Shown: positions 17,333-43,296 of the stretch, piece by piece | Layout: the number at the start of each line of letters is the position of its first letter | How positions within the stretch are numbered: position 1 is the stretch's first letter | Source: Nemertoderma westbladi | Lineage: Eukaryota > Animalia > Xenacoelomorpha | Reading direction: 5' to 3' | Length of the DNA: 43,906 bases | NCBI GenBank assembly: GCA_032718475.1 | Contig: JAUCBJ010002939.1 | Location: 1 to 43,906 of the forward strand | Translations under genes and position numbers: made by a program | The notes under the pieces: model-generated | Database searches by the model: none | Told to the model about the DNA's origin: nothing | What the model saw: the letters and a program-made list of their open reading frames with translations, nothing else

Positions 17333-17680
17333 GAAAACTAGATTATTCCGTGCATTCATTACACCTCTGTCCTCTATACTGTAACGCATTATGGTCTCAT
17401 AGTAATTACTCGTCGTCAGTATATAATAGGATTAGGGCTGTAGGGTGGCTTACAACCTGACAACAACGCGGCAAGAAAGTTATTTTCAATTCCTCCGCTG
17501 TCTATTATGTCACTATTTTTTGGTTCTCACAATTTGCCTTGTTTTGTGCACGTACGTCACCACTCTGTAACCAGTTTATTCTCTAGAATTGAATCATCCG
17601 CCAATCATGTTGTAGGCCATATTTTTCGTTGTACCGTAGGCTCAAGACTACAGTCCATGCGCAATAGTTCCTTACTATTT

Positions 17681-19872
17681 CAGTAGGGAACACATGCCCG
17701 AATTGGCAGCACAGACGCACTGCCATTTTTGAAAAATGCACTGCCATATTAGGCAGTTTTACCCTAAATTTCGGATAAAATGTGAATTTTTATCAACTTC
17801 CTGCAGGAAGGGCCCCATTTTTATTTCATTGGATGAAAATATGATATATATTGGAGGTAAATACAAAATGTAGTAAGAGTTTCATGGTTGGGTTTTGGAG
17901 ATATTTGACATTGAAAATTGCAAGTCAAAAACATGCACTGCCTAAAATGGCAGTTATGGTAGGCCTATTGAATTAATTCCTTCTGCCTGACTGTAGGAGA
18001 GCTGGAGAGCCTGGCAATGCCAGGCATCCTTCAGTCCTTCAGAGTTTATCTATCTCTGTCTGTACTGTATCTGCTAAACAGCCTATCTATCTACAGTATA
18101 TAAGACTATCTTTTTGAAAGCAATTTATATATTTTATTTTTGTTAGTTATTCAGTTAACTGATTAACAATTTACACAGTCACTGACAGCTGGACAGGTAA
18201 TTTATTAATATATTTATTCTACTGTATAAAATATTAATATACAGGTATGTGTGGCCATTATAACAATATGTATTATAGGCCTATAGTTTGTTAATATTAA
18301 AAGTTACAGTTCGCTAATGATAAAATTTATGTTTATTGACTGATTGATATGGTAACTGATAATTATTGATAGTAAATATTTAGTAATAAAATCATTAGGC
18401 CTAATACTGTAATATATATTTAAAACTGTCATATCTTTAAGGGGTCTGTACAGAAATTTACCTCCCCTTGATAAATTTATTGTTTAATAATTTATGAATG
18501 TAGAGAGAAATTTCTTATAAGGCACTGTTTAAGGATTAACTGACAGACTGATAGGCATTAGGCCTATTTGTTAACAAAATACAAATTACTGTATAAGAAG
18601 TCATCATCAGATCATTAGTAAGAAATAATTAAATCCAATTTAGATACTAAAAAATAGTCTATAGGCCTATTTAGATTTACACATTCACACACAAAATTTA
18701 TATAATAAACTAGTATTTTGATACAGTACAGCAGTATGACTTACCGGCTGACCAGTAATCTAAAATTGATATAAATCAATTAATTGTAAATTGATACAGT
18801 ATTATGTTGGTTTTACAGTAGATGGAAAACGTAAAATAGCCCTATAGATAGAGTGAGCCTCAATGAGTAAAACCAACATAAATATAAAATAATAATAAAG
18901 ATAAAGATAATATATTCTAACAAACACATGTTGCAACAGTATATTTTTTCAAAGCATAATTTGATACTAATGTTTTTGTGTACAAGTACAATAGGCTGGC
19001 TGTGAGTGGCTGGATAGAATAAACGTTAATAGTAAAACATGTAGAGTAAAACAAACAAGTAAAACAAACATAATACTGAATATCTAAAATATAAAAATAT
19101 TACAAATTAAAAATTAAAATTAACAAGCTAATATTGCGATAGTAGGCCTATAAATTAAGCTAAAACTGAGATGAGCGTTTATGTTTACAATAGGCAATAG
19201 GAGTTGAGTACGTAGATTAAAACACATACAAAGTCATACATTCGACAATAGTAATGGTAAGGGATATAGAGAATGTAATACAAACCAACATACCATATAC
19301 AGATATAATATTTACAAATTCAGGAGAAAAATGATCGGGTCTTTCTTTTTCCAACTTTCCCAGTCTACTGGTGTTTCAAACTGTGAAAAATTGATTTATA
19401 AAATCCAGAAATCTGTTGAATATTGGTTATTTATATATATATTGTTTCCATCAGAATTGCTGAATTGTATGTAATGCTGAACAGCTGAATGCATTTTCTG
19501 ATTTTGCACTGCCATTTTAAGCATTGCACTGCTAGTTAAAACAGTAGGCTGTTATATTAAGCTGTTAAGCAGAACACTGCTATTTTGGGCAGTGCATGCT
19601 TTTGACTAGAAATTTTAAAAGTCTGATGTCTCTAAAACCCAACTGTGAAAGTCTACCAAACTTTCTATTTACCTTGCAATACATATTATATCTTCTCATA
19701 TCATATATATCATATATATATATCATATCATCCCATGAAATAAAAAAGGGGCCCTTCGAGCGGGAAGTTAATAAAAATTGACATTTTATCAGAAATTTAG
19801 GCTAAAACTGCCTAATATGGCAGTGCATTTTGCAAAGTCTGCACTGCCTGTTTGGGCATGTGTTCCCTACTG
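17681..19872. mobile_element. Non-autonomous DNA transposon, ~280-bp imperfect TIRs, CAG...CTG termini, 5-bp TSD TATTT
   Basis: TATTT|CAGTAGGGAACACATGCCC ... GGGCATGTGTTCCCTACTG|TATTT; repeated GCACTGCC subterminal motifs; no coding remnant seen. Confidence 0.82.
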
Positions 19873-20149
19873 TATTTTGATTATTAACGATTAGACTAGG
19901 CCTACTTTACTTACCATAGGGCCTAATACAGTAATATCTGAATATAAAATATGTGATATTTTTCATTCTACTTTAGTTCAGTAGTTACTTTCTACCGTAT
20001 AGTAGTTACCTTATAGTCTGTTAGTTACACTATATTTAATATTTGTGCTATTATTATGTACTGTACACTGATATGAACCATAGTCGGTTTGGTGTAAGTA
20101 AATAAATTAATAAAAAAAAATAAAAAAAATCAGTATATATAGAGCACTA

Positions 20150-22089
20150 TTTTGCAGTATTGCTGCATTGTATGTAGGTATAAAACCTACCTATGCCTTA
20201 CTGACTACAGGACTAGGGCCTAGTTTATTATATAGGCCTAAATTTTGTGTGTGAACGTGTAAATCTAAATATAGGACTATTTTTTCGTATCTAAATTGGA
20301 TTTAATTATTTCTCACTAATGATCTGATGATGACTTCTTACTGTCTTATACCTGTATACAGTGATTTGTATTTTGTTAATGCAGTAATGGGTGCCTTATA
20401 AAAAATTTCTTTCAACATCCATAAATTATTAAACAATAAATTAATCAAGGGGAGGTAAATTTCTGTATGGAACCCCTTAAAGATATGACAGTTTTAAATA
20501 TGATACATATTAATGATTTTATTACTAAATTTTTACTATCAATAATTATCAGTTACCATATCAATCAGTCAATAAACATTAATTTTATCATTAGGTTACA
20601 GTGGTAGCCAGAAGGAACCAAAACAATAAACGATTAGAAAAAAATAAAATTCTAATTTTTTGTGTGATTTGGTGTTTGGTGTGATTTGGTCAATTTTGTG
20701 TGATTTGGGTGTTTAGACGGACCGGCCTATAGGCCTAATACATTGTTATGGCCACATATATATTAATATTTTATAGGCCTACAGTCTGACAGTAGGCCTA
20801 TAATAAATATATTAATAAATTACCTGTCACTGACTGTGTAAATTGTTAGGCGTAACCCATAACCAGTTAATTGAACATTGAATAAGTAACAAAAACAAAA
20901 TATATAAATTGCTTTCAAAAGGATAGGCATAGGCCTATATATATACTGTAGGTACAGATAGCTGGATAGATAGGCTGTTTAGCAGATACAGTACAGACAG
21001 AGATAGATAAACTTTGAAGGACTGAAGGATGCCTGGCACCTATATGGAATACTGACAAAAAGCGCGCCACATGCGTTCTGGTTAAACGAAAATCGCGCCA
21101 GTCATGATATCTAATGCGCGCCAAGCCAACAATTGACTATGAAATTTTGCAGTAATTGCTTAAATGTAATAATTTATCAGTTTATAATTCTGTAGCCCTA
21201 CAGTATGTTAACATTTAAATGCGAGCGTAGCGAGCACGGAAATTCTGCTGAATCATGCAGGCTGTCATGGTTTTATTGGTTTGAAGAATCTGACAGTCTG
21301 ACAATTGAAAAACTTTTGAAACAATAAGTCATGTTTTTAATGGTCATGCTCAATCTGTCCGTTTCCATTTGTCCACAGCCAGACAGTACTAAGAGTAGAC
21401 TTGCAGTATAAACGCGAGCGAAGCGAGCGGACATTTTTCAATCTTTTTAAACCTATGGAATAATTTCAAATAGAGCTGTAGAGTGGGATGTGTTGCTAGT
21501 CTGCTAGTGCACTGCTACGCTACCTCCTACTGTCCTAACCTAACCCTACATCGCTACATCCATATTCGCGCCAGGACCGCCAGGATCCTCAATGCGCGCC
21601 ACACGCCCCTGTCACTACGCGCCAGGATCCTTAATCCGCGCCACACGCCCCTGTCACTACGCGCCAGGATCCTTAATCCGCGCCACACATGTTGAGCAAA
21701 CTCTACATAAATTCCAACCTGGGCCTGGCATTGCCAGGCTCTCCTACATTCTGACATTCAGACAGTAGGAATTAATTCAATAGCATAACTGCCATTTTAG
21801 GCAGTGCATGTTTTTGACTTGCAATTTTCAATGTCAAATTCTCAAATATCTCTAAAACCCAACCATGAGACTCTTACCACATTTTGTATTTACCTCCAAC
21901 AGTCCAATATATATCATATTTTCATCCAATGAAATAAAAATGGTGAATGGGGCCCTTCCAGCGGGATGTTGATAAAAATTCACATTTTATCCGATATTTA
22001 GGGTAAAACTGCCTAATATGGCAGTGCATTTTTCAAAAATGGCAGTGCGCCTGTGCTGCCAATTCGGGCATGTGTTCCCTTCCCTACCG
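20150..22089 (-). mobile_element. Inverted partial second copy of the 17681 element, with nested insertions
   Basis: 21723-22089 and ~20150-21038 align in reverse to ~17681-18740. Confidence 0.85.
21039..21722. mobile_element. 684-bp nested insertion with 8-bp TSD GCCTGGCA
   Basis: TSDs at 21031-21038 and 21723-21730; the empty site is seen in copy 1 (~18010-18029). Imperfect termini CCTATATGGAAT / CCAGGTTGGAAT; internal 42-bp CGCGCC-rich tandem at ~21578-21690. Confidence 0.8.
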
Positions 22090-22559: not shown

Positions 22560-22800
22560 ATCGTTTGTCGGTTAATCAGATCGTTTATTGTTTTGGTTAG
22601 AAAAGCGTGCCTCTGTAACCTGTTCCCTTCCCTCAATTGGTAACAACATCGTTTATTGTTTTGGTTAGATAAGCCTGCCTCTGTAACCTGTCAGCCTGTT
22701 CCTTTCCCTCAATTGGCATGATTGGTAACAATATCGTTTATTGTTTTGGTTATAAAACCCAGCCTCTGCAACCTGTTCCTTTCCCTCAATTGGTAGCAAT
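22560..22800. repeat. Three-four tandem ~70-85-bp units (ATCGTTTATTGTTTTGGTTA...CTCTGTAACCTGTTCC..CCCTCAATTGG), dispersed family
   Basis: Inverted relatives at ~20594-20635 and ~24056-24118. Confidence 0.8.
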
Positions 22801-23183: not shown

Positions 23184-23329
23184 ATGTCAATTTCTTCAAA
23201 TGAAAGTTTAATTGAGGAGAACGTCGAAGTGTTGGACCCGAGGCAGAAAAGAATAGAAATCGAACTCGAGAAGTTAAACTCAACGAGCGATAAAGTGAAC
23301 CTATTGGAGAACGAACTTGATTCCCGCAG
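23184..23329 (+). CDS. SH3BP5L: SH3 domain-binding protein 5-like (parcas/REI-1 family Rab11 GEF), coding exon 1
   Basis: MSISSNESLIEENVEVLDPRQKRIEIELEKLNSTSDKVNLLENELDSR(R) fits the family's DPRIxxELEKLN..IN..E.EL motif; in-frame upstream stop; donor AG|GTTTGT, phase 2. Not in the ORF track. Confidence 0.85.
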
Positions 23330-24371
23330 GTTTGTTTTTGTTAGGCCTACATAGGTACCGCGATCTATTTACAGAATATTTGTAAACAATATGCAATAGG
23401 CCTACCCTACCGGTACGCATTAATATTTAATTTAAGTAGGCCTACGGTACGACTTACGACTATTCAAGGGTGCGATGAGATTGAGATTAAGATTATGTAG
23501 GGCCTATTGCACGATAATAGTCGACACAGTGTAAATATGCAGACATACCGGTAAATATGGCGAATTAATACAAATACTGCATAGGGCTATAACTTACACC
23601 TTTATATAAATTTACATACATAAAAAGTTAAAATTATTGTGCTGCTGGGGATAGCCTCATGAGTTATTCAACTTGTTTCCATGAGGGTCCCCAAGGAAAG
23701 AGTTCATGAGGGCAATAAGTCAATATGAAGTAAAATCAATATTAAAATACATCTTTTAGTCGATATCATTGGATAATGTAGCTAAAAACCATGTTCAATA
23801 TTCAAAATAAGCTTCAATTTAAATAAGTACCGGTAACCTACACAAAATGATTTATTTGCGGTAAAAATGTTTGACTGTCTGATTAACACTGCAAAGCATT
23901 CTAAAAGCTAAAAATGGGTTAAAAATTGTTAAAAAGTTTGAAAAAACTATAAAACTTTACAATCAGGCCTATCTATGCTGAGTTTACAAAGTAGAAGTTG
24001 GGGAATTTCGGGTTTGGTACCCCCGGATGCAATTTTTTTCCGTCATTTTTATATATACCAATTGAGGGAAAGGATCAGGTTACATATGCGCTTTTCTAAC
24101 CAAAACAATAAGCGATCACTTTACCAGGGTACTAAAGTGCTATTTCACTGGCTGGCTTACTGGTGGGTACCAAACCCGATAGAGCTAAAAGTTGTGCTTA
24201 GAAATGTTTAAACGTCGAAATGTGAAGTGCAGACAATGAATATGAAGTGAAACCCAATCATACATAGTAGATAGATACAATAAGAATTCAAATTAAAAAA
24301 ATTAAATGTTTAGCCGCTGGTAGTTTAATAATGTCCCCCTTATGTGGTTTATTATTTATTTATTTTTCCAG

Positions 24372-24524
24372 GTCGACGTTCAAACGATATCTGAACAATT
24401 TTACTGTGAATCTTAAAGAAATCGCTAACAATTTGGGTTCCGCCGTCGAGAAATCGCGATTGTATTACGAAGCGGAGGCGCATAGCAGAGAGGCTCATCT
24501 AGAGACACAACGTGCTGCCGTCAA
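24372..24524 (+). CDS. SH3BP5L: SH3BP5-like, coding exon 2
   Basis: Acceptor TTTTTCCAG|; STFKRYLNNFTVNLKEIANNLGSAVEKSRLYYEAEAHSREAHLETQRAAV (LG..VEK.R.YYEA motif); donor AA|GTAAGA; 153 nt, phase 2-2. Confidence 0.92.
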
Positions 24525-25705
24525 GTAAGAAAGTGGAAAGGGGCGCTCAGCTCGAGACACAGCGAGCTGCGGTCTAGTAGGAAAGGGGTAAGGGGGGCTA
24601 AGCTCGAGACACAACGAGCTGCGGTCTAGTAGGAAAGGGGGTAAGGGGGGCTCAGCTCGAGACACAACGAGCTGCGGTCTGGTAAGAAAGGGGAAACGGG
24701 GGCTCAGCTCGAGACACAGCGAGCTGCCGTCTAGTAGGAAAGGGGTAAGGGGGGCTAAGCTCAAGACACAACGAGCTGCGGTCTAGTAGGAAAGGGGTAA
24801 GGGGGGCTCAGCTCGAGACACAGCGAGCTGCCGTCAAGTAAGAAAGGGGTAAGGGGGGCTCAGCTCGAGACACAACGAGCTGCGGTCTAGTAGGAAAGGA
24901 GTAAGAGGGGCTAAGCTCAAGACACAACGAGCTGCGGTCTAGTAGGAAAGGGGTAAGGGGGGCTCAGCTCGAGACACAGCGAGCTGCCGTCAAGTAAGAA
25001 AGGGGTAAGGGGGGCTCAGCTCGAGACACAGCGAGCTGCGGTCTAGTAGGAAAGGGGTAAGGGGGGCTAAGCTCAAGACACAACGAGCTGCGGTCTAGTA
25101 GGAAAGGGGTAAGGGGGGCTCAACTCGAGACACAGCGAGCTGCCGTCAAGTAAGAAAGGGGTAAGTGGGGCTCAGCTCGAGACACAGCGAGCTGCGGTCT
25201 AGTAGGAAAGGGGTAAGGGGGGCTAAGCTCGAGACACAGCGAGCTGCGGTCTAGTAGGAAAGGGGAAAGGGGGGCTCAGCTCGAGACACAGCGAGCTGCC
25301 GTCAAGTAAGAAATGGGTAAGGGGGGCTCATCTCGAGACACAGCGAGCTGCGGTCTAGTAAGAAAGGGGTAAGGGGGGCTAAGCTCGAGACACAACGAGC
25401 TGCGGTCTGGTAAGAAAGGGGAAACGGGGGCTCAGCTCGAGACACAGCGAGCTGCGGTCTGGTAAGAAAGGGGAAACGGGGGCTCAGCTCGAGACACAAC
25501 GAGCTGCGGTCTGGTAAGAAAGGGGAAACGGGGGCTCAGCTCGAGACACAGCGAGCTGCGGTCTAGTAAGAAAGGGGAAAAGGGGGCGCAGCACGAGACA
25601 CAACGAGCTGCCGTTAGGTGAGAAAGGGGAAAGGGGGGCTCAGCTCGCGACATCGAGCTGCCGTCTAGCGGTCTGGTAAGAAAGGGATTGGGGGGCTCAG
25701 CTCGA
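24493..25705 (+). repeat. 52-bp minisatellite (~23 copies) = last 32 nt of exon 2 + first 20 nt of intron 2
   Basis: Exon copy GCTCATCTAGAGACACAACGTGCTGCCGTCAA|GTAAGAAAGTGGAAAGGGGC; CT(A/C)GAGACAC at 24499, 24551, 24603 and onward. Confidence 0.95.
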
Positions 25706-25832
25706 AATTAGTAGTTAGAGTGTATTATTACTCATAGTCATTAACCACACTCCACGTGAGGGTTCGCGGATGTTTTTTTTTCCATAAAATTATTATAATT
25801 TTTAACGCTGGTTACAATCTTGTCTTACTTAG

Positions 25833-25956
25833 ATATGAGAGAGCGATTAGCCAGCACACCACAGCTAAGGAGATGGTCGCTGTGGCGGAATCGAGATTAC
25901 AGCGCCAACATTTCGATGTGGCATGGCAAGAAAAGTTGAACAATACCACACTCCAA
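25833..25956 (+). CDS. SH3BP5L: SH3BP5-like, coding exon 3
   Basis: Acceptor CTTACTTAG|; YERAISQHTTAKEMVAVAESRLQRQHFDVAWQEKLNNTTLQ (YERA.S.H..AKEMV.VAE...D..WQE.LN motif); donor CAA|GTAAGT; 124 nt, phase 2-0. Confidence 0.92.
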
Positions 25957-27014
25957 GTAAGTGTATACCACACTCCAAGTAAGTGTATACCGCACTACAA
26001 GTAAGTGTATACCACACTCCAAGTAAGGGTGTACCACACTCCAAGTAAATGTTTACCACACTCCAAGTAAGTGTATACCACATTGCAAGTGTTTGCCACA
26101 CTCCAAGTAAATGTATACCACACTCCAAGTAAGTGTATACCACACTCCAAGTAAATGTATTCCACACTCCAAGTAAGTGTTTACCACACTCCAAGTAAGT
26201 GTATACCACACTCCAAGTAAGTGTATACCACACTCCAAGTAAATGTATTCCACACTCCAAGTAAGTGTTTACCACACTCCAAGTAAGTGTATACCACACT
26301 CAAAGTAAGTGTATACCACACTCCAAGTAAGTGTATACCGCACTACAAGTAAGTGTATACCACACTCCAAGTAAGTGTATACCACACTCCAAGTAAATGT
26401 ATTCCACACTCCAAGTAAGTTTATACCACACTCAAAGTAAGTGTATACCACACTCCAATAAATGTATTCCACACTCCAAGTAAGTGTTTACCACACTCCA
26501 AGTAAGTGTATACCACACTCAAAGTAAGTGTATACCACACTCCAATAAATGTATTCCACACTCCAAGTAAGTGTTTACCACACTCCAAGTAAGTGTATAC
26601 CACACTCCAAGTAAGTGTATACCACACTCCAAGTAAGTGTATACCACACTCCAAGTAAGTGTATACCACACTCCAAGTAAATGTATTCCACACTCCAAGT
26701 AAGTGTTTACCACACTCCAAGTAAGTGTATACCACACTCCAAGTAAGTGTATACCACACTCCAAGTAAGTGTATACCACACTCCAAGTAAGTGTATACCA
26801 CACTCCAAGTAAATGTATTCCACACTCCAAGTAAGTGTTTACCACACTCCAAGTAAGTGTATACCACACTCCAAGTAAGTGTATACCACACTCCAAGTAA
26901 ATGTATTCCACACTCCAAGTAAGTGTTTACCACACTCCAAGTAAATGTATACCACACTCCAAGTAAGTGTATACCACACTCCAAGTATAACTTCAGGGAT
27001 AATGACTGTAGAAA

Positions 27015-28072
27015 TGAACTCCGCCTGCTCAGACCTATACAATAACAACTCTATACAGTTTACCGTAGACTACTCCAGAAAATCCATAAACTACCTAGAT
27101 GTTACTATTCAAGCTTCAAACTCAACAAAACTAACAACCAAAATATATAGGAAACCAATGTCTAATAAACTACCCATCGCATACTCAAGCTTCCACCACA
27201 AACCATCCTTGCTAGCCATAGTTCGAGCTGAACTGCTGCGCATTCGCCGACTAACGGATTCAACAAATCATTTCAAACAACAAAGGCATTTATATCTCGA
27301 AAAGTGTAAACTCAGAGGATACCCCTTGAACTTCCTTTTAAGTTTGTATGCGTGGGACCCACCCCAATGTTCAACATTCACTGCCGCCGAACACGATCAG
27401 GACTTTCCGCATTCACCAAGCCATACCAATCAACAAAACAACATAAAACCTCCTACCCAACGTTTCTATCTGTCAACGACACCACAATTTATCCCTACCC
27501 TCAGCAAAGTTGTACGTCGGCATAACAGACGAGTTCAGCACCTTGGTGTAACATTACAAACTGTCCCACGAAATGCACCAACTTTGGGAAAGCTTCTAAT
27601 ACGTAAACAGGAACCACAAACAGCTCCAGGTAACCATCCATGTTTGCAACCCCGCTGCCTCACCTGCTTGGCAATTACGGATATGAAAGAGACACCATGG
27701 GGCGAGCCAATCATCGGGAGGTTTGATTGTAAATCCAGCAACATTCTCTATACCATTAAATGTAAAACTCACCCCTATCAATACTACCTCGGTCAAACTG
27801 AACAACGTCTGCACAAGAGGCTCAATAAACATCGGGAGAACATCAACAGCTACAGGAAAGCTCTGGATAAGGCAATAAAGAACAACAAGCCGATATGTAC
27901 TGTGACAACAACTGACCCGGAGGTGCTATAGCTTCAACATTTCAGTAGCTGTAATAATTACGAAGTAACATGCGTCCAGCAATTTCGTAACCACCAGCGT
28001 CGTATTCATACTGAAGCATTACTCATTAATTGCCACCGCCCACCCCTCAATAAACTGGTACCACTTCTATAG
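27015..28072 (+). pseudogene. Penelope-like RT/GIY-YIG ORF remnant with premature stop
   Basis: TAG at 27929-27931 is followed in frame by LQHFSSCNNYEVTCVQQFRNHQRRIHTEALLINCHRPPLNKLVPLL*, carrying the GIY-YIG R..E....P.LN end. The ORF-track start at 26945 is satellite sequence. Confidence 0.88.
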
Positions 28073-28820
28073 AATGAAACTTCGACCCGATGGCTCGCCC
28101 CCACCTAACATTTGGATGTAACAAACTCACACCACCTCTAATAATTAATTAACTGTGCAGTACGCTCTACCCTTGCTGTAATATACAATGTGTCAGCCAG
28201 CTGTAATGTACGTACTATAGCCGAACATATTAGTATTCAATAGGAAGTACCAAAACAAAAACTTTTTTAAAAATTGTAATATGTAATCTTGTAGGGATTC
28301 CATTTATTTAGTAACAGTAATATGTGTCCTTTTATCCCCCTCAATTTTATGGCTTAGGTATTCTTTCCCTTCTTTTAAATATATTTTTAAATGATTTTTT
28401 ATTTCAGAACCAACATTTTTTTAGAATTTTTTTACCCTTTTACCAGCCTCACTTTTATTTGTGAATTTGTAACTCAACGACTTAATATTGGAACCAACAA
28501 TTTTTAACTATTTTTAATCATTTAATGGTTTTAACGTTACCCACCCTTTTTACACCTCTTCATTTAGCACCCTTTTTATTTTTATTTTTAATTTTTTAAA
28601 TTTAATATTGAACGTCTAATACCTTAACAACACTTGTAGCCTACAATTCTATCTCTAGGCCTACATACAGTATTATGATAAATCTAAATATGTTAATCTA
28701 ATACATCCTATCATACTGTGTATATCGGAATTTGGTGGCATAATAATTGGTTGTACCGTATGTTAAATTTAATATTATGGTTTAGGTTTATAAATTGTGT
28801 TTTAATGTTATTTTAATTTA

Positions 28821-28862
28821 ATTTACTGAAGACGTCCGTGAGGATGAAATGGCCATATAAAT
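28821..28862 (+). ncRNA. Minimal type I hammerhead ribozyme
   Basis: Stem I ATTTA/TAAAT; core CTGAAGA; extra C; stem II GTCC-GTGA-GGAT; GAAA; palindromic stem III ATGGCCAT; predicted cleavage after AUA at 28857. Confidence 0.85.
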
Positions 28863-30971
28863 AGAAACTGTTTTCGTTAACCGTGGCATTAGACCCTTTC
28901 TACAGTCATTATCCCTGAAGTTATAATTATGGATACGCCACGAACGGCATCATTTCGACTTCTTTCCCATTTAAACACTCCAAGTAAGTGTTTCCCACAC
29001 TCAAAGTAAGTGTATACCACAATCCAAGTTAATGTATACCGCACTACAAGTAAGTGTTTACCACACTCCAAGTAAGTGTTTACCAGACTCCAAGTAAGTG
29101 TATACCACACTCCAAGTATGTATACCACAGTACAAGTAAATATATACCACACTACAAGTAAGTGAGTGTTTTGTTTACCACACTCCAAGTAAGTGTATAT
29201 CACACTCCAAATAAGAGTTCACCACACTCCAAGTAAGTGTATATCACACTCTAAGTGTTTACCACACTCCAAGTAAGTGTTTACCACACTCCAAGTAAGT
29301 GTTTACCACACTCCAAGTAAGTATACCACAGTACAAGTAAGTGTTTACCACACTCCAAGTAAGTGTTTACCACACTCCAAGTAAGTATACCACAGTACTA
29401 GTAAGTGTATACCACACTCCAAGTAAGTGTTTACCACACTCCAAGTAAGTGTTTACCACACTCCATGTAAGTATACCACAGTACAAGTAAGTGTATACCA
29501 CACTCCAAGTAAGTGTATACCACACTACAAGTAAAGGTTTACCACACTCCAAGTAAGTGTATACCACACTCCAAGTAAGTGTATACCACACTCCAAATAA
29601 GTGTATACCACACTCCAAGTAAATATATACCACACTACAAGTAAGTGTTTACCACACTCCAAGTAAATGTATACCACACTCCAAGTAAGTGTTTACCAAA
29701 CTCCAAGTAAGTATACCACAGTACAAGTAAGTGTATACCACACTCCAAGTAAGTGTATACCACACTACAAGTAAAGGTTTACCACACTCCAAGTAAGTGT
29801 ATACCACACTCCAAGTAAGTGTATACCACTCTCCAAATAAGTGTATACCACACTCCAAGTAAATATATACCGCACTACAAGTAAGTGTTTACCACACTCC
29901 AAGTAAATGTATACCACACTCCAAGTAAGTGTATACCACACTCCAAGTAAGTGTATACCACACTACAAGTAAAGGTTTACCACACTCCAAGTAAGTGTAT
30001 ACCACACTCCAATTAAGTGTATACCACACTCCAAATAAGTGTATACCACACTCCAAGTAAATATATACCACACTACAAGTAAGTGTTTACCACACTCCAA
30101 GTAAATGTATTCCACACTCCAAGTAAGTGTTTAGCACACCGCAAGTGTATACCACACTCCAAGCAAGTGTATACCACACTCCAAGTAAGTGTATACCACA
30201 CAACAAGTAAGGGTTTACCACACTCCAAGTAAGTGTATACCACACTCCAAGTAAGTGTATACCACACCCCAACTATATGTATACCACACTCCAAGTAAGG
30301 GTTTACCACACTCCAAGTAAATGTATACCACACTGCAAGTGTATACCACACTCCAAATAAATGTATACCACACTCCAAGTAAGTGTTTACCACACTGCAA
30401 GTGTATACTACACTCCAAGTAAGTGTATACCACACTCCAAGTAAATGTATACCACCTTCCAAGTATATGTTTACCACACTGCAAGTGTATACAACACTCC
30501 AAATAAATGTATACCACACTCCAAGTAAGTGTTTACCACACTGCAAGTGTATACCACACTCCAAATAAATGTATACCACACTCCAAGTAAGTGTTTACCA
30601 CACTGCAAGTGTATACTACACTCCAAGTAAGTGTATACCACACTCCAAGTAAGTGTATACCACACCCCAACTAAATGTATACCACACTCCAAGTAAGGGT
30701 TTACCACACTCCAAGTAAATGTATACCACACTGCAAGTGTATACCACACTCCAAATAAATGTATACCACACTCCAAGTAAGTGGTTACCACACTGCAAGT
30801 GTATAGCACGCTCCAAGTAAGTGTATACCACACTACAAGTAAGGGTTTACCACACTCAAAGTAAGTGTATACCACACTCCAAGTAAATGTATACCACGCT
30901 CCAAGTAAGTGTTTACCACACTCCAAGTAAGTGTATACCACACTCCAAGTAAATGTATACCACACTCCAAG

Positions 30972-31250
30972 GTTCCACCTTGGTGTAGTGGTCGCATTGA
31001 ATTCACATCTCCCGTATGTCGTGGGTTCGAACCTCACATAGGCCAGGGCAGTTTTCGTTTCGGCACGAATGCTTTAAAGGGACCAGCCAGGGCGCATCTC
31101 TGCCTTGCATCCTTAAGTGGTAGCTAAATGAGTACTGGAGTTTCCTCTGGGGAGTAAAGTTCTGGGGGGACCTCACTGGAAATAAGTCGTCGGACTTTGT
31201 GCGTAATCCCTGGACTAGCGGCCGAAGAAAATTTACTTTACTTTTACTTT
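30972..31250 (+). mobile_element. tRNA-derived SINE
   Basis: A box TGGTGTAGTGG, B box GGTTCGAACC, central GCCTTGCATCCTT...TAAATGAGTAC..CTGGGG segment resembling conserved SINE core domains (from memory, unverified), (TTTAC)n tail, flanked by ACACTCCAAG on both sides. Confidence 0.9.
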
Positions 31251-34123
31251 ACACTCCAAGTAAGTGTTTACCACACTGCAAGTGTATACCACACTCCAAG
31301 TAAGTATATACCACACTCCAAGTAAATGTATACCACACTCCAAGTAAGTGTATACAACACTCCAAGTAAGTGTATACCACATTGCAAGTGTTTGCCACAC
31401 TCCAAGTAAATGTATACCACACTCCAAGTAAGGGTTTACCACACTGCAAGTGTATACCACACTCCAAGTAAGTCTATACCACGCTGCCAGTGTATATCAC
31501 ACTCCAAGTAAGTGTATACCACACTACAAGTAAGGGTTTTCCACACTTCAAGTAAGTGTATACCACACTCCAAGTAAATGTATACCACACTCCAAGTAAA
31601 TGTATAGCAAGTAAATGTATACCACACTCCAAGTAAGTGTATACAACACTCCAAGTAAGTGTATACCACATTGCAAGTGTTTGCCACACTCCAAGTAAAT
31701 GTATACCACACTCCAAGTAAGGGTTTACCACACTGCAAGTGTATACCACACTCCAAGTAAGTCTATACCACGCTGCCAGTGTATATCACACTCCAAGTAA
31801 GTGTATACCACACTCCAAGTAAATGTATAGCACACTCCAAGTAAGTGTATACCACACTCCAAGTAAATGTATACCACACTCCAAGTAAATGTATAGCACA
31901 CTCCAAGTAAGTGTATACCACACTCCAAGTAAGTGTATACCACACTCCAAGTAAGTGTATACCACACTACAAGTAAGGGTTTACCACACTCCAAGTAATT
32001 GTATACCACACTCCAAGTAAGTGTTTACCACACTCCAAGTAAGTGTTTAACACACTCCAAGTATGTATACCACAGTACAAGTAAATGTATACCACACTCT
32101 AAGTAAGTGTTTACTACACTCCAAGAAAGTGTATACCACAATCCAAGTAAATGCATACCGCACTACAAGTAAGTGTTTACCACACTCCAAGTAAGTGTAT
32201 ACCACACTCCAAGTATGTATACCACAGTACAAGTAAATGTATACCGCACTACAAGTAAGTGTTTTGTTTACCACACTCCAAGTAAGTCTATACCACACTC
32301 CAAGTAAGAGTTGACCACACTCCAAGTAAGTGTATATCACACTCCAAGTAAGTGTTTACCACACTCCAAGTAAGTGTATACCACACTCCAAGTAAGTGTT
32401 TACCACACTCCAAGTAAGTGTATACCACACTCCAAGTAAGTGTTTACTACACTCCAAGAAAATGTATACCACAATCCAAGTAAATGTATACCGCACTACA
32501 AGTAAGTGTTTACCACACTCCAAGTAAGTGTATATCACACCCCAAGTATATATACCACAGTACAAGTAAATGTATACCACACTCCAAGTAAGTGTTTACT
32601 ACACTCCAAGAAAGTGTATACCACAATCCAAGTAAATGTATACCGCACTACAAGTAAGTGTTTACCACACTCCAAGTAAGTGTTTACCACACTCCTTGTA
32701 GGTGTATACCACACTGCAAGTGTATATCACACTGCAAGTAAGTGTATACCACACTCCAAGTATGTATACCACAGTACAAGTGTGGTGTATACCACACTAC
32801 AATTAAGTGTTTACCACACTCCAAGTAAGTGTTTACTACATTCCAAGAAAGTGTATACCACAATCCAAGTAAATGTATACCGCACTACAAGTAAGTGTTT
32901 ACCACACTCCAAGTAAGTGTTTACCACACTCCAAGTAAGTGTATACCACACTCCAAGTATGTATACCACAGTACAAGTAAATGTCTACCACACGACAAGT
33001 AAGTGTTTTGTTTACCACACTCCAAGTAAGTGTATACCACACTCCAAGTAAGAGTTCACCACACTTCAAGTAAGTGTATATCAGACTCTAAGTGTTTACA
33101 ACACTCCAAGTAAGTGTATACCACACTCCAAGTAAGTGTTTACCACACTCCAAGTAAGTGTTTGCCACACTCCAAGTAAGTATAACACACTCCAAGTAAG
33201 TGTATACCACACTACAAGTAAGGGTTTACCACACTCCAAGTAAGTGTATACCACACTCCAAGTAAGTGTATACCCCACTGCAAGTGTATACCACACTCCA
33301 AGTAAGTGTATATTACACTCCAAGTAAGTGTATACCACACTCCAAGTAAATGTATACAACACTCCAAGTAAGTGTGTACAACACTCCAAGTGTTTGCCAC
33401 ACTCCAAGTAAATGTATAACACACTCCAAGTAAGGGTTTACCACACTGCAAGTGTATACCACACTCCAAGTAAGGGTTTACCACACTCCAAGTAAATGTA
33501 TACCACACTGCAAGTGTATACCACACTCCAAGTAAATGTATACCACACTCCAAGTAAGGGTTTACCACACTGCAAGTCTATACCACACTCCATGTAAGGG
33601 TTTACCACACTCCAAGTAAATGTATACCACACTCCAAGTAAGGATTTACCACACTCCAAGTAAATGTATGCCACACTCCAAGTAAGGGTGTACCACACTC
33701 CAAGTAAATGTATACCACTCTTCAAGTGTATACCACACTCCAAGTAAATGTATACCACACTCCAAGTAAGTGTATACCACACTCCAAGTAAGTGTATATC
33801 ACACTCCAAGTATGTGTATACCACACTCCAAGTAAGTGTTTACAACACTCCAAGTAAGTGTATACCACAATCCAAGTAAGTGTATGCCACAATCCAAGGA
33901 AATGTATACCACACTCCAAGTAAGTGTTTACTACACTTCAAATAAATGTTTACCACACTCCAAGTAAGTGTTTACCACACTGGTAAATATATAAACGGGA
34001 AAATCTAAACGCTTTAATGAAGTAGAAACCTAGAGCTCTATTATAGTCCTGAATTTCAATTATTAAATTTATCACCATAATAATTCTGCCACTAAAGTCT
34101 GTTTATGTTTTTCCTGCGCGCAG

Positions 34124-36685
34124 GTAAATGAGTATGAATTGGTAAAGAGGGAAGCAGAGCGGGACCACTTGGCTACGGCGCAGAGGTTTACAGCAGCCCA
34201 ACAAAGCGCTAAACAGCTCTACGCAAAGAACAAACGCGCCATCATTAAATCTAAATCGTATTTTGACCAGAAAGCCGTTTATATCGACACTTTGGAACAA
34301 CATAAACTCAAGATCGAAGCGTTAAGTAGAGAAGTTCGAGTCGCAAAACAGGTTTACTCTGAAACGCTGCAGCGGTTGAATTCCATCAGCGAAGAGATAC
34401 ATCGGCGCAGAGAGGAGCGACGAGCTAGGAAGGGAGGTAGGGGGATTGGTGTGGGCAGCGAGAATCCATCCCCGTGCTGCAATCTACGGGATAGTTGCGA
34501 TGAAACCCCGCAATCCGAAGTTTCAGTTAAACCTATTAGTGATTCCGTTTGTGATTCGCAGACTTTATCCACCGATGTTTGTTCACATTCCAGTATAAAT
34601 AAATCTTTTGATCAGGAATCTAAGACCAATAAATCTGATGATCATAACCTTCATAGCATTACCTCTCCCGATCATGATTTAGACATCAGTGACTCGCCTG
34701 GCCATGATTCTCGAGTCAGTAATTTCCCACCCCAAAACTCAACGACCAGTGATTCATTTGGCCACTGCCTGCAACCCTCTAGCTCGCTAGTATCGTATGA
34801 CGAACCTGATGAAATCAACGTACCGACGGCATCCGATTCAACTAAATGTGCAATAGAACAATCTCCGCCCGCTGTTGTTCAGTCTATGGATGTAGGAGCA
34901 ACGAGGTACGGAATGGAAGCCGCAGTGCTGGAAAGTGGCGATAAACTAAATCGAGGCGTATCGACCTTGGTCTCAATGGTACACAACACGGCGCCTCCCG
35001 AACCCAGCTCAATGGCTCACGAACCCAACCAGTCGGCTCATGAACCCAAGTCGTTGGCTCACGAACTCAACGTGTTGTCTCCCGAACCCAACTCTTCCGC
35101 TTACGAACCCAACTCGTTGGCTCACGAACACAACACGTCTGCTCACGAATCCAACTCGTTGGCTCACGAACCCTACTCGTTGGCTCACGAACACAACTCA
35201 TCTGCTCACGAACCCAACTCCTTGGCTCGCGAACCCAACTCGTTGGCTCACGAACTAAAATTGTTGGCTCCCGAACCCAACTCATCCGCTCACGAACCCA
35301 ACTCGTTGGCTCACGAACACCACTCGTCTGCTCACGAACCCTTAACGTCGGGTCACGAACAAAACACATTGGCTCACGAACACAACTCTTTGGCTCACGA
35401 ACCCAACTCGTTGCCTGACGAACCCAACTTGTTAGCTCCCGAACCAAACTCGTTGGCACCCATACCCAACTCGCTGGCTCACGAACCCAACTCGTTAGCT
35501 CCTGAACCAAACTCGTTGGCTCCCGAACCCAATCCGTTGGCTCACGAACTCAAATTGTTGGATCCCGAAACCAACTCATCCGCTCACGAACCCAACTTGT
35601 TGGCTCTCGAACACAACTCGTCTGCTCACGAACCCCTCACGTCGACTCACGAACCCAACTCGTCGGCTCACGAACCCAACTCCTTGGGTCCCGAACCTAA
35701 CTCGTTGGCTCCCGAACCCATCTCGTTGGCTCACGAACCCAACTCGTCGACACACGAACCCAATCCGTTGGCTCACGAACCCAACTCGTCTGCTGACGAA
35801 CCCAACCCGTTGGCTGACGAAACCGACTCGTTGGCTGACGAACTCAACTCGTCGGTTCACGAACCCAACTCGTCGACACACGAACCCAATCCGTTGGCTC
35901 ACGAACCCAACTCGTCTGCTCACGAACCCAACTCTTCGGCTCACGAACACAACTCGTTGGCTCACGAACCCAACTCGTCGGCTCACGAACCAAACTCGTC
36001 GGCTCTCGAACCCAATCCGTTGGCCCACGAACCCAACTCATCTGCTCACGAACCCAACTCTTCGGCTCACGACCCCAACTCGTGGGCTCACGAACCCAAC
36101 TCGTCGGTTCACGAACCCAATTCGTCGGCTCGTGAACCCAGCTCATTGGCTCACGAACCTAACTCGCCCCAACATTTTACTGAGTTCCAGAGTTTCGCGT
36201 CGTTTCCTCCCGTTAACCCGAGTTTGTCGGTTGTGAGTTGGCCCCGTCTCCCACCCCCGACTGCTCCCAGACCCAATCCGTCGTCCCACGAACCATCCCG
36301 ACGTCCGTCTGTCTCTCTCGTCTGCCGCGCGGCGACGCCACTCTCCGAGGCGATCGGTTCTCTCTCCGACGAGGAGGACGGAGGACTACAGAATAAACCC
36401 TACGTGAAACTGAGCGCTCGCGAGGCCCGTAACCTCGGACGGTTGCGTTCATTATCAGCGGCGGTCGAACCCACGGCGGAAACGCGAACGGCCTCACTCG
36501 CAAACAAACGGAAGTCCGAAACCCGACTGGCGATTCGATTCTCCACTCCGAGCCTCGATGCAGCGAAGCCTAGGAGTTGGTCGGAGATTCTACCGTCTTC
36601 GACTATTTTCGAACCACTTCGCGCCTCTAATGTTCCGTCATCTACACGAACTGATGAACCCATTGATGAAGAATCTTACGCATAA
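34124..36685 (+). CDS. SH3BP5L: SH3BP5-like, coding exon 4 (coiled-coil end plus long low-complexity tail)
   Basis: Acceptor TTTTTCCTGCGCGCAG|; VNEYELVKREAERDH...RAIIKSKSYF...YSETLQRLNSISEEIHRRR fits the family's AI.KSRPYF / YS..L..L..ISE.IH..R motifs. Joined CDS 2985 nt = 994 aa if the tail is unspliced. Confidence 0.88.
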   Translation, partial: VNEYELVKREAERDHLATAQRFTAAQQSAKQLYAKNKRAIIKSKSYFDQKAVYIDTLEQHKLKIEALSREVRVAKQVYSETLQRLNSISEEIHRRREERRARKGGRGIGVGSENPSPCCNLRDSCDETPQSEVSVKPISDSVCDSQTLSTDVCSHSSINKSFDQESKTNKSDDHNLHSITSPDHDLDISDSPGHDSRVSNFPPQNSTTSDSFGHCLQPSSSLVSYDEPDEINVPTASDSTKCAIEQSPPAVVQSMDVGATRYGMEAAVLESGDKLNRGVSTLVSMVHNTAPPEPSSMAHEPNQSAHEPKSLAHELNVLSPEPNSSAYEPNSLAHEHNTSAHESNSLAHEPYSLAHEHNSSAHEPNSLAREPNSLAHELKLLAPEPNSSAHEPNSLAHEHHSSAHEPLTSGHEQNTLAHEHNSLAHEPNSLPDEPNLLAPEPNSLAPIPNSLAHEPNSLAPEPNSLAPEPNPLAHELKLLDPETNSSAHEPNLLALEHNSSAHEPLTSTHEPNSSAHEPNSLGPEPNSLAPEPISLAHEPNSSTHEPNPLAHEPNSSADEPNPLADETDSLADELNSSVHEPNSSTHEPNPLAHEPNSSAHEPNSSAHEHNSLAHEPNSSAHEPNSSALEPNPLAHEPNSSAHEPNSSAHDPNSWAHEPNSSVHEPNSSAREPSSLAHEPNSPQHFTEFQSFASFPPVNPSLSVVSWPRLPPPTAPRPNPSSHEPSRRPSVSLVCRAATPLSEAIGSLSDEEDGGLQNKPYVKLSAREARNLGRLRSLSAAVEPTAETRTASLANKRKSETRLAIRFSTPSLDAAKPRSWSEILPSSTIFEPLRASNVPSSTRTDEPIDEESYA
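35010..36168 (+). repeat. In-frame 21-bp repeat (GCTCACGAACCCAACTCGTTG; AHEPNSL/S) x ~55
   Basis: Continuous within the exon 4 reading frame, no stop or frameshift. Confidence 0.93.
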
Positions 36686-37435: not shown

Positions 37436-37574
37436 CTACGCTTCTACTGTGTCATCTTCCTCACTTTCCATCAACGCTTCGAAATCATCCCTTTTCTGTA
37501 TGTTTAGCACAACCTTTGGTTGAATTTGAGTCGGAATTGTGTCAGGTTCGGATACATCAGTTGTTCGAACCTCA
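37436..37574 (-). CDS. Terminal coding exon of an unidentified single-pass membrane protein
   Basis: Acceptor ATGATTTAG|, phase matches the preceding exon; (S)EVRTTDVSEPDTIPTQIQPKVVLNIQKRDDFEALMESEEDDTVEA*. Confidence 0.7.
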
Positions 37575-37996
37575 CTAAATCATTAAATAAATAACGTATT
37601 ATCTTGCATCACATTCACATTACCCCACAACACTACATTCATAATACTTTAGACACAAACTCAATTTAGGCCCTTTGCGCAGCGCAGATTGTTACTGGTA
37701 GATTGCTCTACATTATCTCCAACTTATTGTTCCAGATACTGTAGTTGATCATTGCACAAGCTCATTCCGTTAGGGTGTTGTCAAGGTCAGCCAATTCTAG
37801 ACTTCCCCTATAGAGTCCGGACAGAAATACTAACCCAGTAAGACAACAAGTTCAACAAACAGCAAGCTGAAAGCATTGGATTTGCCATGATTTTTATATA
37901 ATAATGTCGTTTGTATTGGCTGTTTGTTCCATATGCCTATACAGCTCATTTCACAAGTTCAAATCCTTTCCATGCAGTGCCATACCTCACTCCACA

Positions 37997-38058
37997 ACAC
38001 CCCTACGTCGTTCCAGGCAGTTTCAACCACCCCGTTCCACATAGTTCCATACACCCCT
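37997..38058. repeat. Orphan unit of the 54-bp satellite, separated from its array by a transposon insertion
   Basis: ACACCCCTACGTCGTTCCAGGCAGTTTCAACCACCCCGTTCCACATAGTTCCATACACCCCT matches the unit at 41216 onward. Confidence 0.9.
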
Positions 38059-41000
38059 GGCTCAAAATCACAAAAAGTGGCCAAAAAAATTATTAAAAAA
38101 AAAAAAGTTTCCCAAAGTATGTAATATTATATATCACCAGAAAGCTCTTGATGCGCTGAATTCAATGGTGGTAATTTCCCAATAGCCCCGACCTCATGGT
38201 AACAAATAATTGAGAAAAACAGATGTCCATTCCTGTAACACTTGTCCCACAATGTAACGCCCGATATCAGCCAATCAGAGCCCTTGAATGGCGATTTCCG
38301 ATGCCTGTAACAATTTGTCCCACCATGTAACACCAGTTGTAATTACACTGAAATGTTAAATTAACATAGATTTCGTCTCTGAGTGGGAGCTATGCAGCCA
38401 TTCCTTATCCCAGTAACACATCCCAATGAAGCTTATTTGAAAATAAAATCAATCATAATAAATCTTTATGGTCCCCATTTCTGGAAAAATTATAAAATAT
38501 TATAGTTTATCAAATAAATATAAAGAGTTTTATTTTTAAATTTTAACCACTTTTAGGTACTTTAGTGACGATTTATATGAAAATTCACAAAGTATGACGA
38601 GTTTATTACCGAGTTTATAACTGTATATCACTATGGCTGAGCAGTTAGTCAAAACCTATAAATTGTTCATCAGTTTCATCTCCACCCTCCACAGAACCTC
38701 CTGTACTCCCCACTCCATCTTCTACACCCTCCATAGATTCTCCTGTATTCCAAACGTTATCTTGTATAGCCGCCACGGATCTTCCCATACCCCCCACTCC
38801 TTCAAAACCTGTAAATTGTTCATTATCACTTTCATCCCCACCCTCCACAGATCCACCTGTACCTTCCACTCCATCTTCCCCACCCTCCTCAGATCATCCT
38901 GTACTTCTCACCCTGTCTCCCACACCCTCCACAGATCCTCCTGTACTTCTCACCCTGTCCCCCCCCCCACACCCTCCACAAATCTTCCTGTACTTCTCAC
39001 CCTGTCTCCCACACCCTCCCCAGATCCTCATGTACGTCCCACTCCGTCTCCCACACCCTCCACAGATCCTCCTGTACTTCTCACCCTGCCTCCTACACCC
39101 TCCACAGATCCTCCTGTACTTCTCACCCTGTCTCCCACGCCCTCCACAGATCCTCCTGTACTTCCCACTCCGTCTACCACACCCTCCACAGATCATCCTG
39201 TACTTCCCACTCCGTCTCCCACACCCTCCACAGATCCTCCTGTACTTTTCACCCTGTCTCCCACACCCTCCACAGATCCTCCTGTACTTCTCACTCCGTC
39301 TCCCACACCCTCCACAGATCCTCCCATAGCTCCCACTCCGTCTCCCTCACCCTCCACAGATCCTCCTGTACTTCCCACTCCGTCTCCCACACCCTCCACA
39401 GATCATCCTGTACTTCCCACTCCGTCTCCCACACCCTCCACAGATCCTCCTGTACTTCCCACTCCGTCCCCCACACCCTCCACAGATCCTCCTGTACTTT
39501 TCACCCTGTCTCCCACACCCTCCACAGATCCTCCTGTACTTTTCACTCCTGTCTCCCACACCCTCCACAGATCCTCCTGTACTTTTCATCCTGTCTCCCA
39601 CACCCTCCACAGATCCTCCCATTCTCCACTCGCACCTCTACGTACTGCTCTCGCACTAACTACTCCTCTCGCTCCTCCAACTGCTCCCCTTCCACATCTA
39701 CCTTTTCCCCTCGCACCTCCAACTGCTCCACTTGCACCTCTACCTTTTCCCCTCACACCTCCAACTGCTCCTCTTGCACTTCTACCTTTTCCCCTCGCAC
39801 CTCCAACTGCTCCCCTTGCACCTCTACCTTTTCCCCTCACACCTCCAACTGCTCCCCTTGCACCTCTATTTTTTTCCCTCCCACCTCTAACTGCTCCCCT
39901 CACGGAGCTCCCAATCTCCCTCTCCCAATCGCAGAAGATAGATCTAAGATGGACCGCATTCCATATAAGACAGATCAGTATTATTAGTCCTATTTTTATT
40001 TACTATCAGTATCTTGATACCGGAACGGCAAGCTGATGTCTAATAAGTAATGAAATGTGGTCTCTATTCTATACCGTAGTCACATAGTGTCTGTATCAGT
40101 GTCTTATAACTGGTTCTGGTTAGGATTAGTTTGTTTAGTAGTCAATAGTAAACTCTATGCACTGCGCAGATCTGTAGATCCAATAACTTCGAATCAAACG
40201 CAATAAAGAGGCAGCACTGATACTGTTACCGGTACTACTGTAGGTAGGTAAGTACCAATTCACAGTTAATACTGCTGTTCTGTGTGCATGACCTACAGTC
40301 TTATCAATATTATAAAGTCTGCACTACTAAAGTGTTACAGGTGAGACATGTCCCATTCTGTAGCCCTAAATTATTCGATTTACATGTTACATGTGGGACG
40401 TCCCGCCTTGTAACGATTTTTTGTGTTACAGGCTTTTGTTACAGGTGGGACAAAGCTCATGCTGATAAATGTAAAAGCAACTAAAGTCTATTCCACAGTC
40501 AATTGTTGCCACAAATGATTACTCACGCAAAAGACCAAGAACTTGGCTATCTTCTGATATTTGAATCTTCATATCAAGTTTGTTAGAACTGATTCTAGAG
40601 CATGGTAAACCAGTGCACTTGGTGTTACACATGGGACAATCCTAATTGACATAATCGACTCGCACGTATAAAACCAGCCATTATCTCTGGTTGTGTTTAG
40701 TATTTTTTCGTAAAATCTGGAACATTCCACTTCTTGAAGATTTTCCTTTCAAATAAGAATTTAGTTTATAGAATCCAAATAAAAACCTATTGGTGAATTC
40801 AGTTGTTACCGTTTGGGACAAGTAATTGTCAAAAATATGGGTATATTATCTATTGTTTTATTTAAATATGATATCAATAAAACAATTTGGGAGTTATTCC
40901 ATTGCATTCCTCTATTATTTAGCTTTAAAATGAGCTATAACTTGTTGAAATACACCCAGTAGATGTCAAAATACATCCATCAGAAAACAATCAACTTTTT

Positions 41001-41215
41001 TGGACAATTGAAAAACCTGCATTTTTTAATACTAAAAGGTCTGTAAAATCTTTCAAAGTCGGAGTGACAGTATGATTTTTTGTGCATCTATGTTGGACCA
41101 TAAAATTATCTTCAAAAATATATATAACTTTACTAGGTTCCAAAAAAAATTTCATTCTAAAATTAAGTCGAATCGTGTGGGAAACGTTTTGGGCCACTTT
41201 TTGTGGGTTTGGGCC
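38059..41215. mobile_element. Non-autonomous DNA transposon, ~29-bp imperfect TIRs, 4-bp TSD CCCT
   Basis: CCCT|GGCTCAAAATCACAAAAAGTGGCCAAAAA ... TTTTGGGCCACTTTTTGTGGGTTTGGGCC|CCCT; removing it restores an intact satellite unit; inverted subterminal TGTCCCA/TGGGACA motifs. Confidence 0.85.
38670..39925. repeat. Two abutting pyrimidine-rich 42-bp minisatellites inside the TIR element
   Basis: CACACCCTCCACAGATCCTCCTGTACTTCCCACTCCGTCTCC to ~39625, then CCTCTACCTTTTCCCCTCGCACCTCCAACTGCTCCCCTTGCA to ~39925. Confidence 0.92.

Positions 41216-43265: not shown

Positions 43266-43296
<31 letters not shown>

What the first reader, a model, noticed from the sequence alone, without database searches (positions are those of the whole stretch)
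24493..33985. Splice-donor-seeded satellites: two consecutive introns are built from tandem copies of their own exon end plus 5' splice site
Seen: the intron 2 array (52-mer) and the intron 3 array (22-mer) are unrelated in sequence, yet each begins inside the upstream exon, spans the GT donor and extends only downstream, stopping ~125-140 nt before the acceptor. Inference: two independent arrays with the same geometry suggest a recurring process that seeds or tolerates amplification at 5' splice sites. Selection alone would forbid expansion into the exon but does not obviously explain why the unit straddles the donor. I do not know of this as a named system.
Basis: partly seen in the sequence, partly recalled or inferred. 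Interest (0 to 1): 0.88.

Follow-up and report, generated by a model that had tools for sequence, protein, structure and literature searches.

The report
Splice-donor "mirage" minisatellites in SH3BP5 gene
In an animal SH3BP5-like gene, two neighbouring introns are filled with head-to-tail copies of their own exon end and splice signal (about 23 and about 270 copies), yet the one spliced assembly available uses the first signal both times, so this is a large example of the known "mirage" repeats and likely harmless.

Summary
The gene is a four-exon SH3BP5 homologue. A 52-nt unit (33 exon + 19 intron nt, about 23 copies) fills intron 2. An unrelated 22-nt unit (14 + 8 nt, about 270 copies, 133 exact copies of the donor 9-mer) fills intron 3, split by a Penelope-like and a SINE-like insertion. 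One spliced contig (run X1) uses the first donor in both introns. Both arrays look locus-born.

It is a named kind: amphioxus "mirages" (PMC3087553, PMC3902484) and the human F7, CBS, 6-16, LAMIN B2 and PDGF donor VNTRs (PMC1557585). Mirages hit acceptors too. The scan noted such arrays before in other genomes, consecutive exons included (unchecked).

With the arrays collapsed, both introns were only about 150 nt. That explains the 127 and 142 nt tails and makes donor overlap likely once an array arises there (about 0.45 and 0.18). Uniform seeding over the window fits poorly (P 0.0003-0.004, post hoc). Best reading: exon-biased repeat birth plus selection and first-donor use. A donor-specific mechanism is untested because no genome is held.

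The parts
23184..23329 (+). SH3BP5-like coding exon 1 (start codon to donor; the transcript begins further upstream); intron 1 (1042 nt) has no array
24372..24524 (+). exon 2; its last 33 nt form the exonic part of the first 52-nt unit
24492..25705 (+). 52-nt donor-spanning minisatellite, about 23 units; authentic GT at 24525-24526
25706..25832 (+). 127-nt unique remainder of intron 2 with the acceptor
25833..25956 (+). exon 3; its last 14 nt form the exonic part of the first 22-nt unit
25943..26987 (+). 22-nt donor-spanning minisatellite, segment A (48 units); authentic GT at 25957-25958
26988..28974 (+). Penelope-like retroelement fragment inserted in the array (GIY-YIG domain; 32-nt inverted match between its ends)
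28975..33981 (+). 22-nt minisatellite, segments B and C (85 and 115 ungapped units)
30972..31250 (+). SINE-like insertion in the array (short-repeat tail; A/B-box-like motifs by eye; no ARAGORN or Rfam hit)
33982..34123 (+). 142-nt unique remainder of intron 3 with the acceptor
34124..36685 (+). exon 4 (rest of the SH3BP5 domain and a long low-complexity tail)
34995..36166 (+). third array of the gene: in-frame 21-nt (7-residue) coding minisatellite, 56 copies, not at a splice site

Best explanation
Each array is a 'mirage' minisatellite made of copies of an exon end plus its splice donor, likely born by local tandem duplication in an intron that was probably only about 150 nt long, and likely tolerated because the first donor is still the one spliced. 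Shown: the exon boundaries, the make-up of the units, the first-donor joins in one spliced contig, and the absence of the units elsewhere in the window. Inferred: (1) this genome makes minisatellites often and with a lean toward exonic or exon-near, GC-richer DNA; (2) slippage or unequal exchange expanded and homogenised the units; (3) selection purged expansions inside the conserved SH3BP5 helices and at the branch point and acceptor, so the survivors are donor-straddling units that push all extra copies into the intron, plus an in-frame repeat in the low-complexity tail; (4) upstream-first donor choice or exon definition, possibly backed by decay of stop-containing products, keeps the mRNA normal; (5) the neutral array later took two retroelement insertions.
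For: The exonic part of the 52-nt unit encodes family-conserved residues (two alanines in 17 of 17 aligned homologues, a glutamine in 16 of 17, using 17 of 24 hits), so the unit came from the exon. Summed DNA depth over the units is locus-sized: about 4-27 times single copy for the 52-mer and 350-520 times for the 22-mer, against 10,000 times or more for a dispersed repeat in intron 1 (order of magnitude only). First donors are used. No decoy matches the U1 consensus better than the real donor, and no decoy of equal match gives an in-frame, stop-free product. TRF-called repeats cover 37% of the window. Four of 7 large arrays start in, or within about 200 nt of, a shown or predicted exon. Exons are 40-48% GC and unique intron DNA 32-34%. 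Collapsed introns are 146 and 150 nt. Precedent: PMC1557585 (first-donor scanning shown in F7), PMC3087553, PMC3902484.
Against: The exon-biased birth rate rests on 7 arrays in one window and on one neighbour gene model with no RNA check. Even given birth in these two introns, both straddling the donor has P about 0.08. The gene has two donor arrays and no acceptor array. First-donor use rests on one contig from one run labelled 'DNA?'; contigs drop rare forms, and decay would hide decoy use.
Confidence: 0.7

Rival explanations
1. A donor-specific mutational process seeds the first duplication at the 5' splice site, for example co-transcriptional R-loops, polymerase pausing or U1/spliceosome-linked breaks repaired with slippage.
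For: Two of 3 donors in this gene carry arrays and none of 3 acceptors does. The uniform null gives P 0.0003-0.004 for the window and 0.002 for the gene. None of 7 paper searches returned a genome-wide donor-versus-acceptor count, and PMC3087553 calls the mechanism of generation unclear.
Against: Mirages occur at both boundary types (PMC3087553; PMC3902484). Any donor/acceptor asymmetry is also expected from selection, because the first acceptor copy keeps the branch point and would lengthen the exon (inference). The third array in the gene is mid-exon. The P values are post hoc.
Confidence: 0.15
2. Pure coincidence: arrays are seeded uniformly in a repeat-rich genome, and this window was picked out of very many for its pattern.
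For: The scan reads about 250,000 windows, so P near 0.001 is reachable by ascertainment. Five of 7 arrays here are not on a known donor.
Against: Three arrays fall in a gene of 3.2 kb collapsed length within a 27-kb collapsed window. Several boundary arrays per gene are described for amphioxus Adh3 and PGBD5.
Confidence: 0.09
3. The arrays are kept by selection as decoy-donor regulators (a U1 sink, protection from premature cleavage, or a stop-codon switch that tunes SH3BP5 levels).
For: 133 exact donor 9-mers persist in intron 3. Reading into either intron meets a stop at +2 or +46.
Against: The donor is eroded in 17 of 22 units of the 52-mer. In the 22-mer the +5 G is among the most variable sites (29% of units). 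Two insertions are tolerated. X1 shows no contig on either array (weak, since contigs show presence only).
Confidence: 0.04
4. The arrays are dispersed satellite families or mobile elements that landed at the donors and donated the exon ends, or they are assembly artefacts.
For: The window carries several mobile elements, and contigs cannot span the arrays.
Against: The exonic parts align with SH3BP5 homologues. Depth is locus-sized, and three DNA runs (two samples, which may be the source) hold contigs running from each exon into its array. Units are diverse: 14, 41 and 51 distinct types in the three segments.
Confidence: 0.02

Closest known systems
Amphioxus 'mirage' minisatellites (Adh3, Canestro et al. 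2002, not held, known only through citing passages; globins BflGb6 and BflGb9, PMC3087553, passages; PGBD5 and troponin C, PMC3902484, one passage)
   Same: The tandem unit spans an exon-intron boundary, reiterates the splice signal, is of similar length (Adh3 10-72 bp), recurs within one gene, leaves splicing normal, and its boundary unit stands apart from the homogenised interior.
   Different: Far more copies here (about 270 against 3-6 in BflGb6); both arrays are on donors of consecutive introns; the array carries retroelement insertions; length instability was not tested; the host is an animal of unresolved group (nearest named hits are gastropod and insect proteins at 48-54% identity over one exon).
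Human donor-spanning VNTRs: F7 intron 7 (37 bp, 5-9 copies), CBS intron 13 (15-20), interferon-inducible 6-16 intron 2 (25 pseudo-sites), LAMIN B2 (100 bp, 10-15), PDGF intron 4 (81 bp, 16-18); PMC1557585, abstract, introduction and Discussion read
   Same: The first monomer spans the exon/donor boundary, identical donors follow, and the most upstream one is used.
   Different: One array per gene there, two here. 132 identical decoys here against 25 at most. Minor use of nearby downstream sites, seen in CBS and 6-16, could not be tested here.
Intron gain by tandem duplication of AG/GT proto-splice sites (Rogers model, as cited in PMC3087553; PMC2812944, passages)
   Same: Tandem repeats at an exon-intron boundary fill an intron.
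   Different: Here the acceptors lie in unique 127 and 142 nt tails unrelated to the units, and the donors have no AG before the GT. The arrays enlarged existing introns and did not create them.

Membership tests
mirage / boundary-spanning minisatellite | tandem repeat whose unit spans a real exon-intron boundary | tested here: met
mirage / boundary-spanning minisatellite | unit of minisatellite length (Adh3 10-72 bp, globins 150-160 bp per PMC3087553) | tested here: met
   52 and 22 nt; range
mirage / boundary-spanning minisatellite | splice signal reiterated in many but not all units | tested here: met
   exact donor 9-mer in 5 of 22 and 133 of 248 registered units; 28 and 161 GTRAG sites
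mirage / boundary-spanning minisatellite | regular splicing retained (authentic site used) | tested here: met
   one spliced X1 contig joins at both first donors; minor forms are not visible in contigs
mirage / boundary-spanning minisatellite | length instability between haplotypes or cells | not testable with these tools
   only short contigs; none spans an array
intron created by tandem duplication | both donor and acceptor supplied by copies of one unit containing AG/GT | tested here: not met
   acceptors lie in unique tails; no AG before the donor GT
dispersed satellite family or mobile element | copies at other loci and a unit unrelated to the host exon | tested here: not met
   no match elsewhere in the window; locus-sized depth; exonic part conserved in SH3BP5 homologues; the whole genome was not searchable
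   no genome held; only a one-window null

The most novel reading that the evidence does not exclude
This lineage has a splicing-linked mutational process that seeds tandem duplications at 5' splice sites and inflates 150-nt introns up to 50-fold. The arrays also act as fossils of earlier exon sequence: the 52-mer majority differs from today's exon at 6 of 33 sites, 5 of them third codon positions. The 132 identical decoys would make the intron a very large natural test of first-donor choice.
Probability: 0.15. Interest if true: 0.6.

Novelty: new member of a known kind. Interest (0 to 1): 0.25.

Why it matters
As it stands it is a clean and unusually large mirage. It shows first-donor choice holding against 132 identical downstream donors, at least for the main transcript, and it shows a route by which 150-nt introns grow to 1.3 and 8.2 kb. 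How mirages arise is still described as unclear (PMC3087553), so a repeat-rich genome like this one is a good place for the donor-versus-acceptor count. If that count showed a donor excess beyond selection, it would link splicing to local DNA mutation.

Tried and rejected
The genome-wide enrichment test could not be run: no genome is held. The look-up of sequencing runs listed no holder on record as RNA; X1 was judged transcript-like only from its joins and from zero depth on unique intron DNA. X1 shows no contig on either array, which is no proof that decoys are unused.

The length of the X1 contig as an indirect test of the exon 3-4 join was uninformative; one search replaced it. The search for homologous proteins with exon 4 found nothing (205 candidates). 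'Array majority is ancestral because it encodes Q like human SH3BP5' is weak: homologues have Q 9, H 5, L 3 of 17. The third-position excess is P = 0.018 for the majority sequence but P = 0.14 for all variable sites (5 of 9), and it is post hoc. The megablast search for long internal duplications in the 22-mer printed no rows, so higher-order structure was not resolved.

The 54-mer at 41215-42099 as a third donor array: one GTRAG site lies in its first unit on the minus strand, but the likely donor of the neighbour gene is at 42287, about 190 nt away, and there is no RNA check, so it was not counted. The SINE-like insertion gave no ARAGORN or Rfam hit. Canestro 2002 is not held. Paper searches returned nothing; others returned no genome-wide count; PMC10078293 passages were not relevant. 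No earlier notes exist on this genome or on look-alike stretches.

Full report
Gene. The finding lies in a plus-strand gene of four coding exons: 23184-23329, 24372-24524, 25833-25956 and 34124-36685, predicting 994 residues. Each exon on its own hits Pfam SH3BP5, and together they tile the profile without overlap: 4-30, 33-82, 84-125 and 128-228 of 231. Exons 2 and 3 align with the SH3BP5 chains in the Protein Data Bank. The nearest named proteins are from two gastropods and an insect at 48-54% identity over exon 2 (5 of 24 hits looked up), so the host is an animal whose group I did not resolve.

Arrays. TRF gives a 52-mer at 24492-25705 (23.2 copies) and a 22-mer at 25943-26987 and 28975-33981 (47.8 and 231.2 copies). 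The first 52-nt unit is 33 exonic plus 19 intronic nt; the first 22-nt unit is 14 plus 8. An ungapped scan registered 22 and 248 units and found no match to either unit elsewhere in the window on either strand. The exact donor 9-mer recurs in 5 of 22 and 133 of 248 units. The arrays end 127 and 142 nt before the acceptors. The 22-mer array is split by a 2-kb Penelope-like fragment (GIY-YIG, E 1.2e-4; 32-nt inverted match between its ends) and a 280-nt SINE-like piece (by eye; no hit). The three segments share 7-9 unit types pairwise, which fits insertions into one existing array.

Are the boundaries real? Four runs hold the locus and none is on record as RNA. Run X1 behaves as a transcript. 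One 1625-nt contig with no mismatches skips intron 1 (1042 nt, GT..AG), leaves exon 2 at 24524 with loose letters that match the start of exon 3, and leaves exon 3 at the first donor with loose letters that match exon 4; unique intron DNA has zero depth in X1. X2-X4 cover the introns and show no such joint. Even if X1 held a retrocopy, the joins would mark the same boundaries. Limits: one contig, one sample; contigs drop rare forms; only the first 2 and about 4 units were laid.

Origin. The exonic part of the 52-nt unit codes for residues conserved across homologues (two alanines in 17 of 17, a glutamine in 16 of 17; 7 of the 24 hits were left out because they matched only part of the exon or lay in long unrelated-looking proteins). 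So the unit came from the exon and not the reverse. Summed DNA depth over the units is about 4, 12 and 27 times single copy for the 52-mer and about 350, 435 and 520 times for the 22-mer in X2, X3 and X4. A dispersed repeat in intron 1 reaches 10,000 times or more. The tool warns that this is no copy number, but the order of magnitude fits arrays confined to this locus. The 52-mer majority differs from the exon at 6 of 33 sites, 5 at third codon positions (P = 0.018; for all variable sites 5 of 9, P = 0.14). This hints that the exon drifted at synonymous sites while the array kept an older state. It is post hoc and weak.

Chance and selection. TRF-called repeats cover 37% of the window. If 7 large arrays were seeded uniformly on the collapsed 27,265-nt window, two or more on donors has P = 0.0003-0.004 for 3-10 donors; within the gene P = 0.002. 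These figures are post hoc, in a window picked for the pattern. Collapsing the arrays leaves introns of 146 and 150 nt. If one allows only seeds that leave the exon and the last 35 nt of the intron intact, 45% and 18% of allowed seeds straddle the donor (joint 0.08). The tails before the acceptors are then simply the rest of the old introns. What remains to explain is why arrays arose here at all. Four of 7 arrays start in or within about 200 nt of a shown or predicted exon, one being the in-frame 21-mer in exon 4; exons are 40-48% GC against 32-34% for unique intron DNA. An exon-leaning birth rate plus selection accounts for all three arrays of the gene. This is inference from one window.

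Why it is tolerated. No decoy matches the U1 consensus (recalled motif) better than the real donor: 10 equal it in intron 2 and 133 in intron 3. Reading on into intron 2 meets a stop at +2. In intron 3 the decoys at +22 and +44 shift the frame and a stop follows at +46. So none of these decoys yields a normal protein, and decay could hide some decoy use. In human F7 the most upstream of several identical donors is chosen by an oriented process, shown with 50 constructs (PMC1557585; abstract, introduction, Discussion). I infer the same here.

What is known. Minisatellites whose first unit spans an exon/donor boundary are listed for human F7, CBS, 6-16, LAMIN B2 and PDGF (PMC1557585). In amphioxus such repeats are named mirages, described for Adh3, two globins, troponin C and PGBD5. 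They occur at both 5' and 3' boundaries, do not disturb splicing, and their mechanism is called unclear (PMC3087553 passages; PMC3902484 passage). The original Adh3 paper is not held. No supplements were read. Four defining features were tested and met; length instability was not testable. Seven paper searches returned no genome-wide donor-versus-acceptor count. Earlier notes of this scan describe the same kind of array in sharks, rays, molluscs, annelids and urchins, including consecutive exons and acceptor-side cases. These are unchecked; their mention of lancelets led me to the mirage papers.

Verdict. It is a new member of a known kind. Its distinguishing points are size (about ten times the largest published count I saw), two consecutive introns, and nested insertions. 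A donor-specific mutational process stays open at about 0.15. Interest 0.25.

Noticed in passing
window 34995-36166 (+): In-frame 21-nt minisatellite (56 copies of a 7-residue unit) in exon 4 lengthens the SH3BP5-like tail by about 390 residues; a third array in the same gene.
   Followed up: partly
window 37437-43906 (-): Likely neighbour gene, convergent with SH3BP5: candidate exons near 43690-43906, 42287-42511 (a hydrophobic, transmembrane-like stretch) and 37437-37574; no convincing Pfam hit; no RNA check.
   Followed up: partly
window 37991-38058 and 41215-42099: A 54-nt array in the predicted last intron of that gene appears split by a 3.1-kb element (38059-41215) with about 29-nt inverted ends. 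The element itself holds two 42-nt arrays (38835-39619, 39658-39900). One donor-like site lies in the first unit on the minus strand near 42056.
   Followed up: partly
window 4691-9257: 4.6-kb array of a 31-nt unit (142 copies) with no repeated donor motif and no evident gene link.
   Followed up: no
window 14425-17431 (-): LINE-like element with a reverse transcriptase (RVT_1, E 7e-29) and weak endonuclease hits, broken by a near-perfect 293-nt tandem duplication at 15593-16179.
   Followed up: partly
window 3-1265 (-): 421-residue open frame running off the window start; no Pfam hit.
   Followed up: no
window 22580-22799 and about 24030-24126: A short, very high-copy dispersed repeat (summed depth 10,000 times single copy or more in DNA runs) sits in intron 1 and, by eye, as a 68-nt tandem upstream of exon 1.
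   Followed up: no
window 25957-25963 and 34124-34130: Exon 4 starts with the same four bases as intron 3, and the commonest donor variant in the 22-mer array (45 units, G to A at +5) matches the start of exon 4 for 7 nt. Probably a single transition, but it mimics the spliced junction.
   Followed up: no
window 17668-22061: Pairs of inverted and direct copies of a roughly 250-nt element (about 17668-17960, 19590-19850, 21780-22061), seen by eye; likely MITE-type repeats.
   Followed up: no
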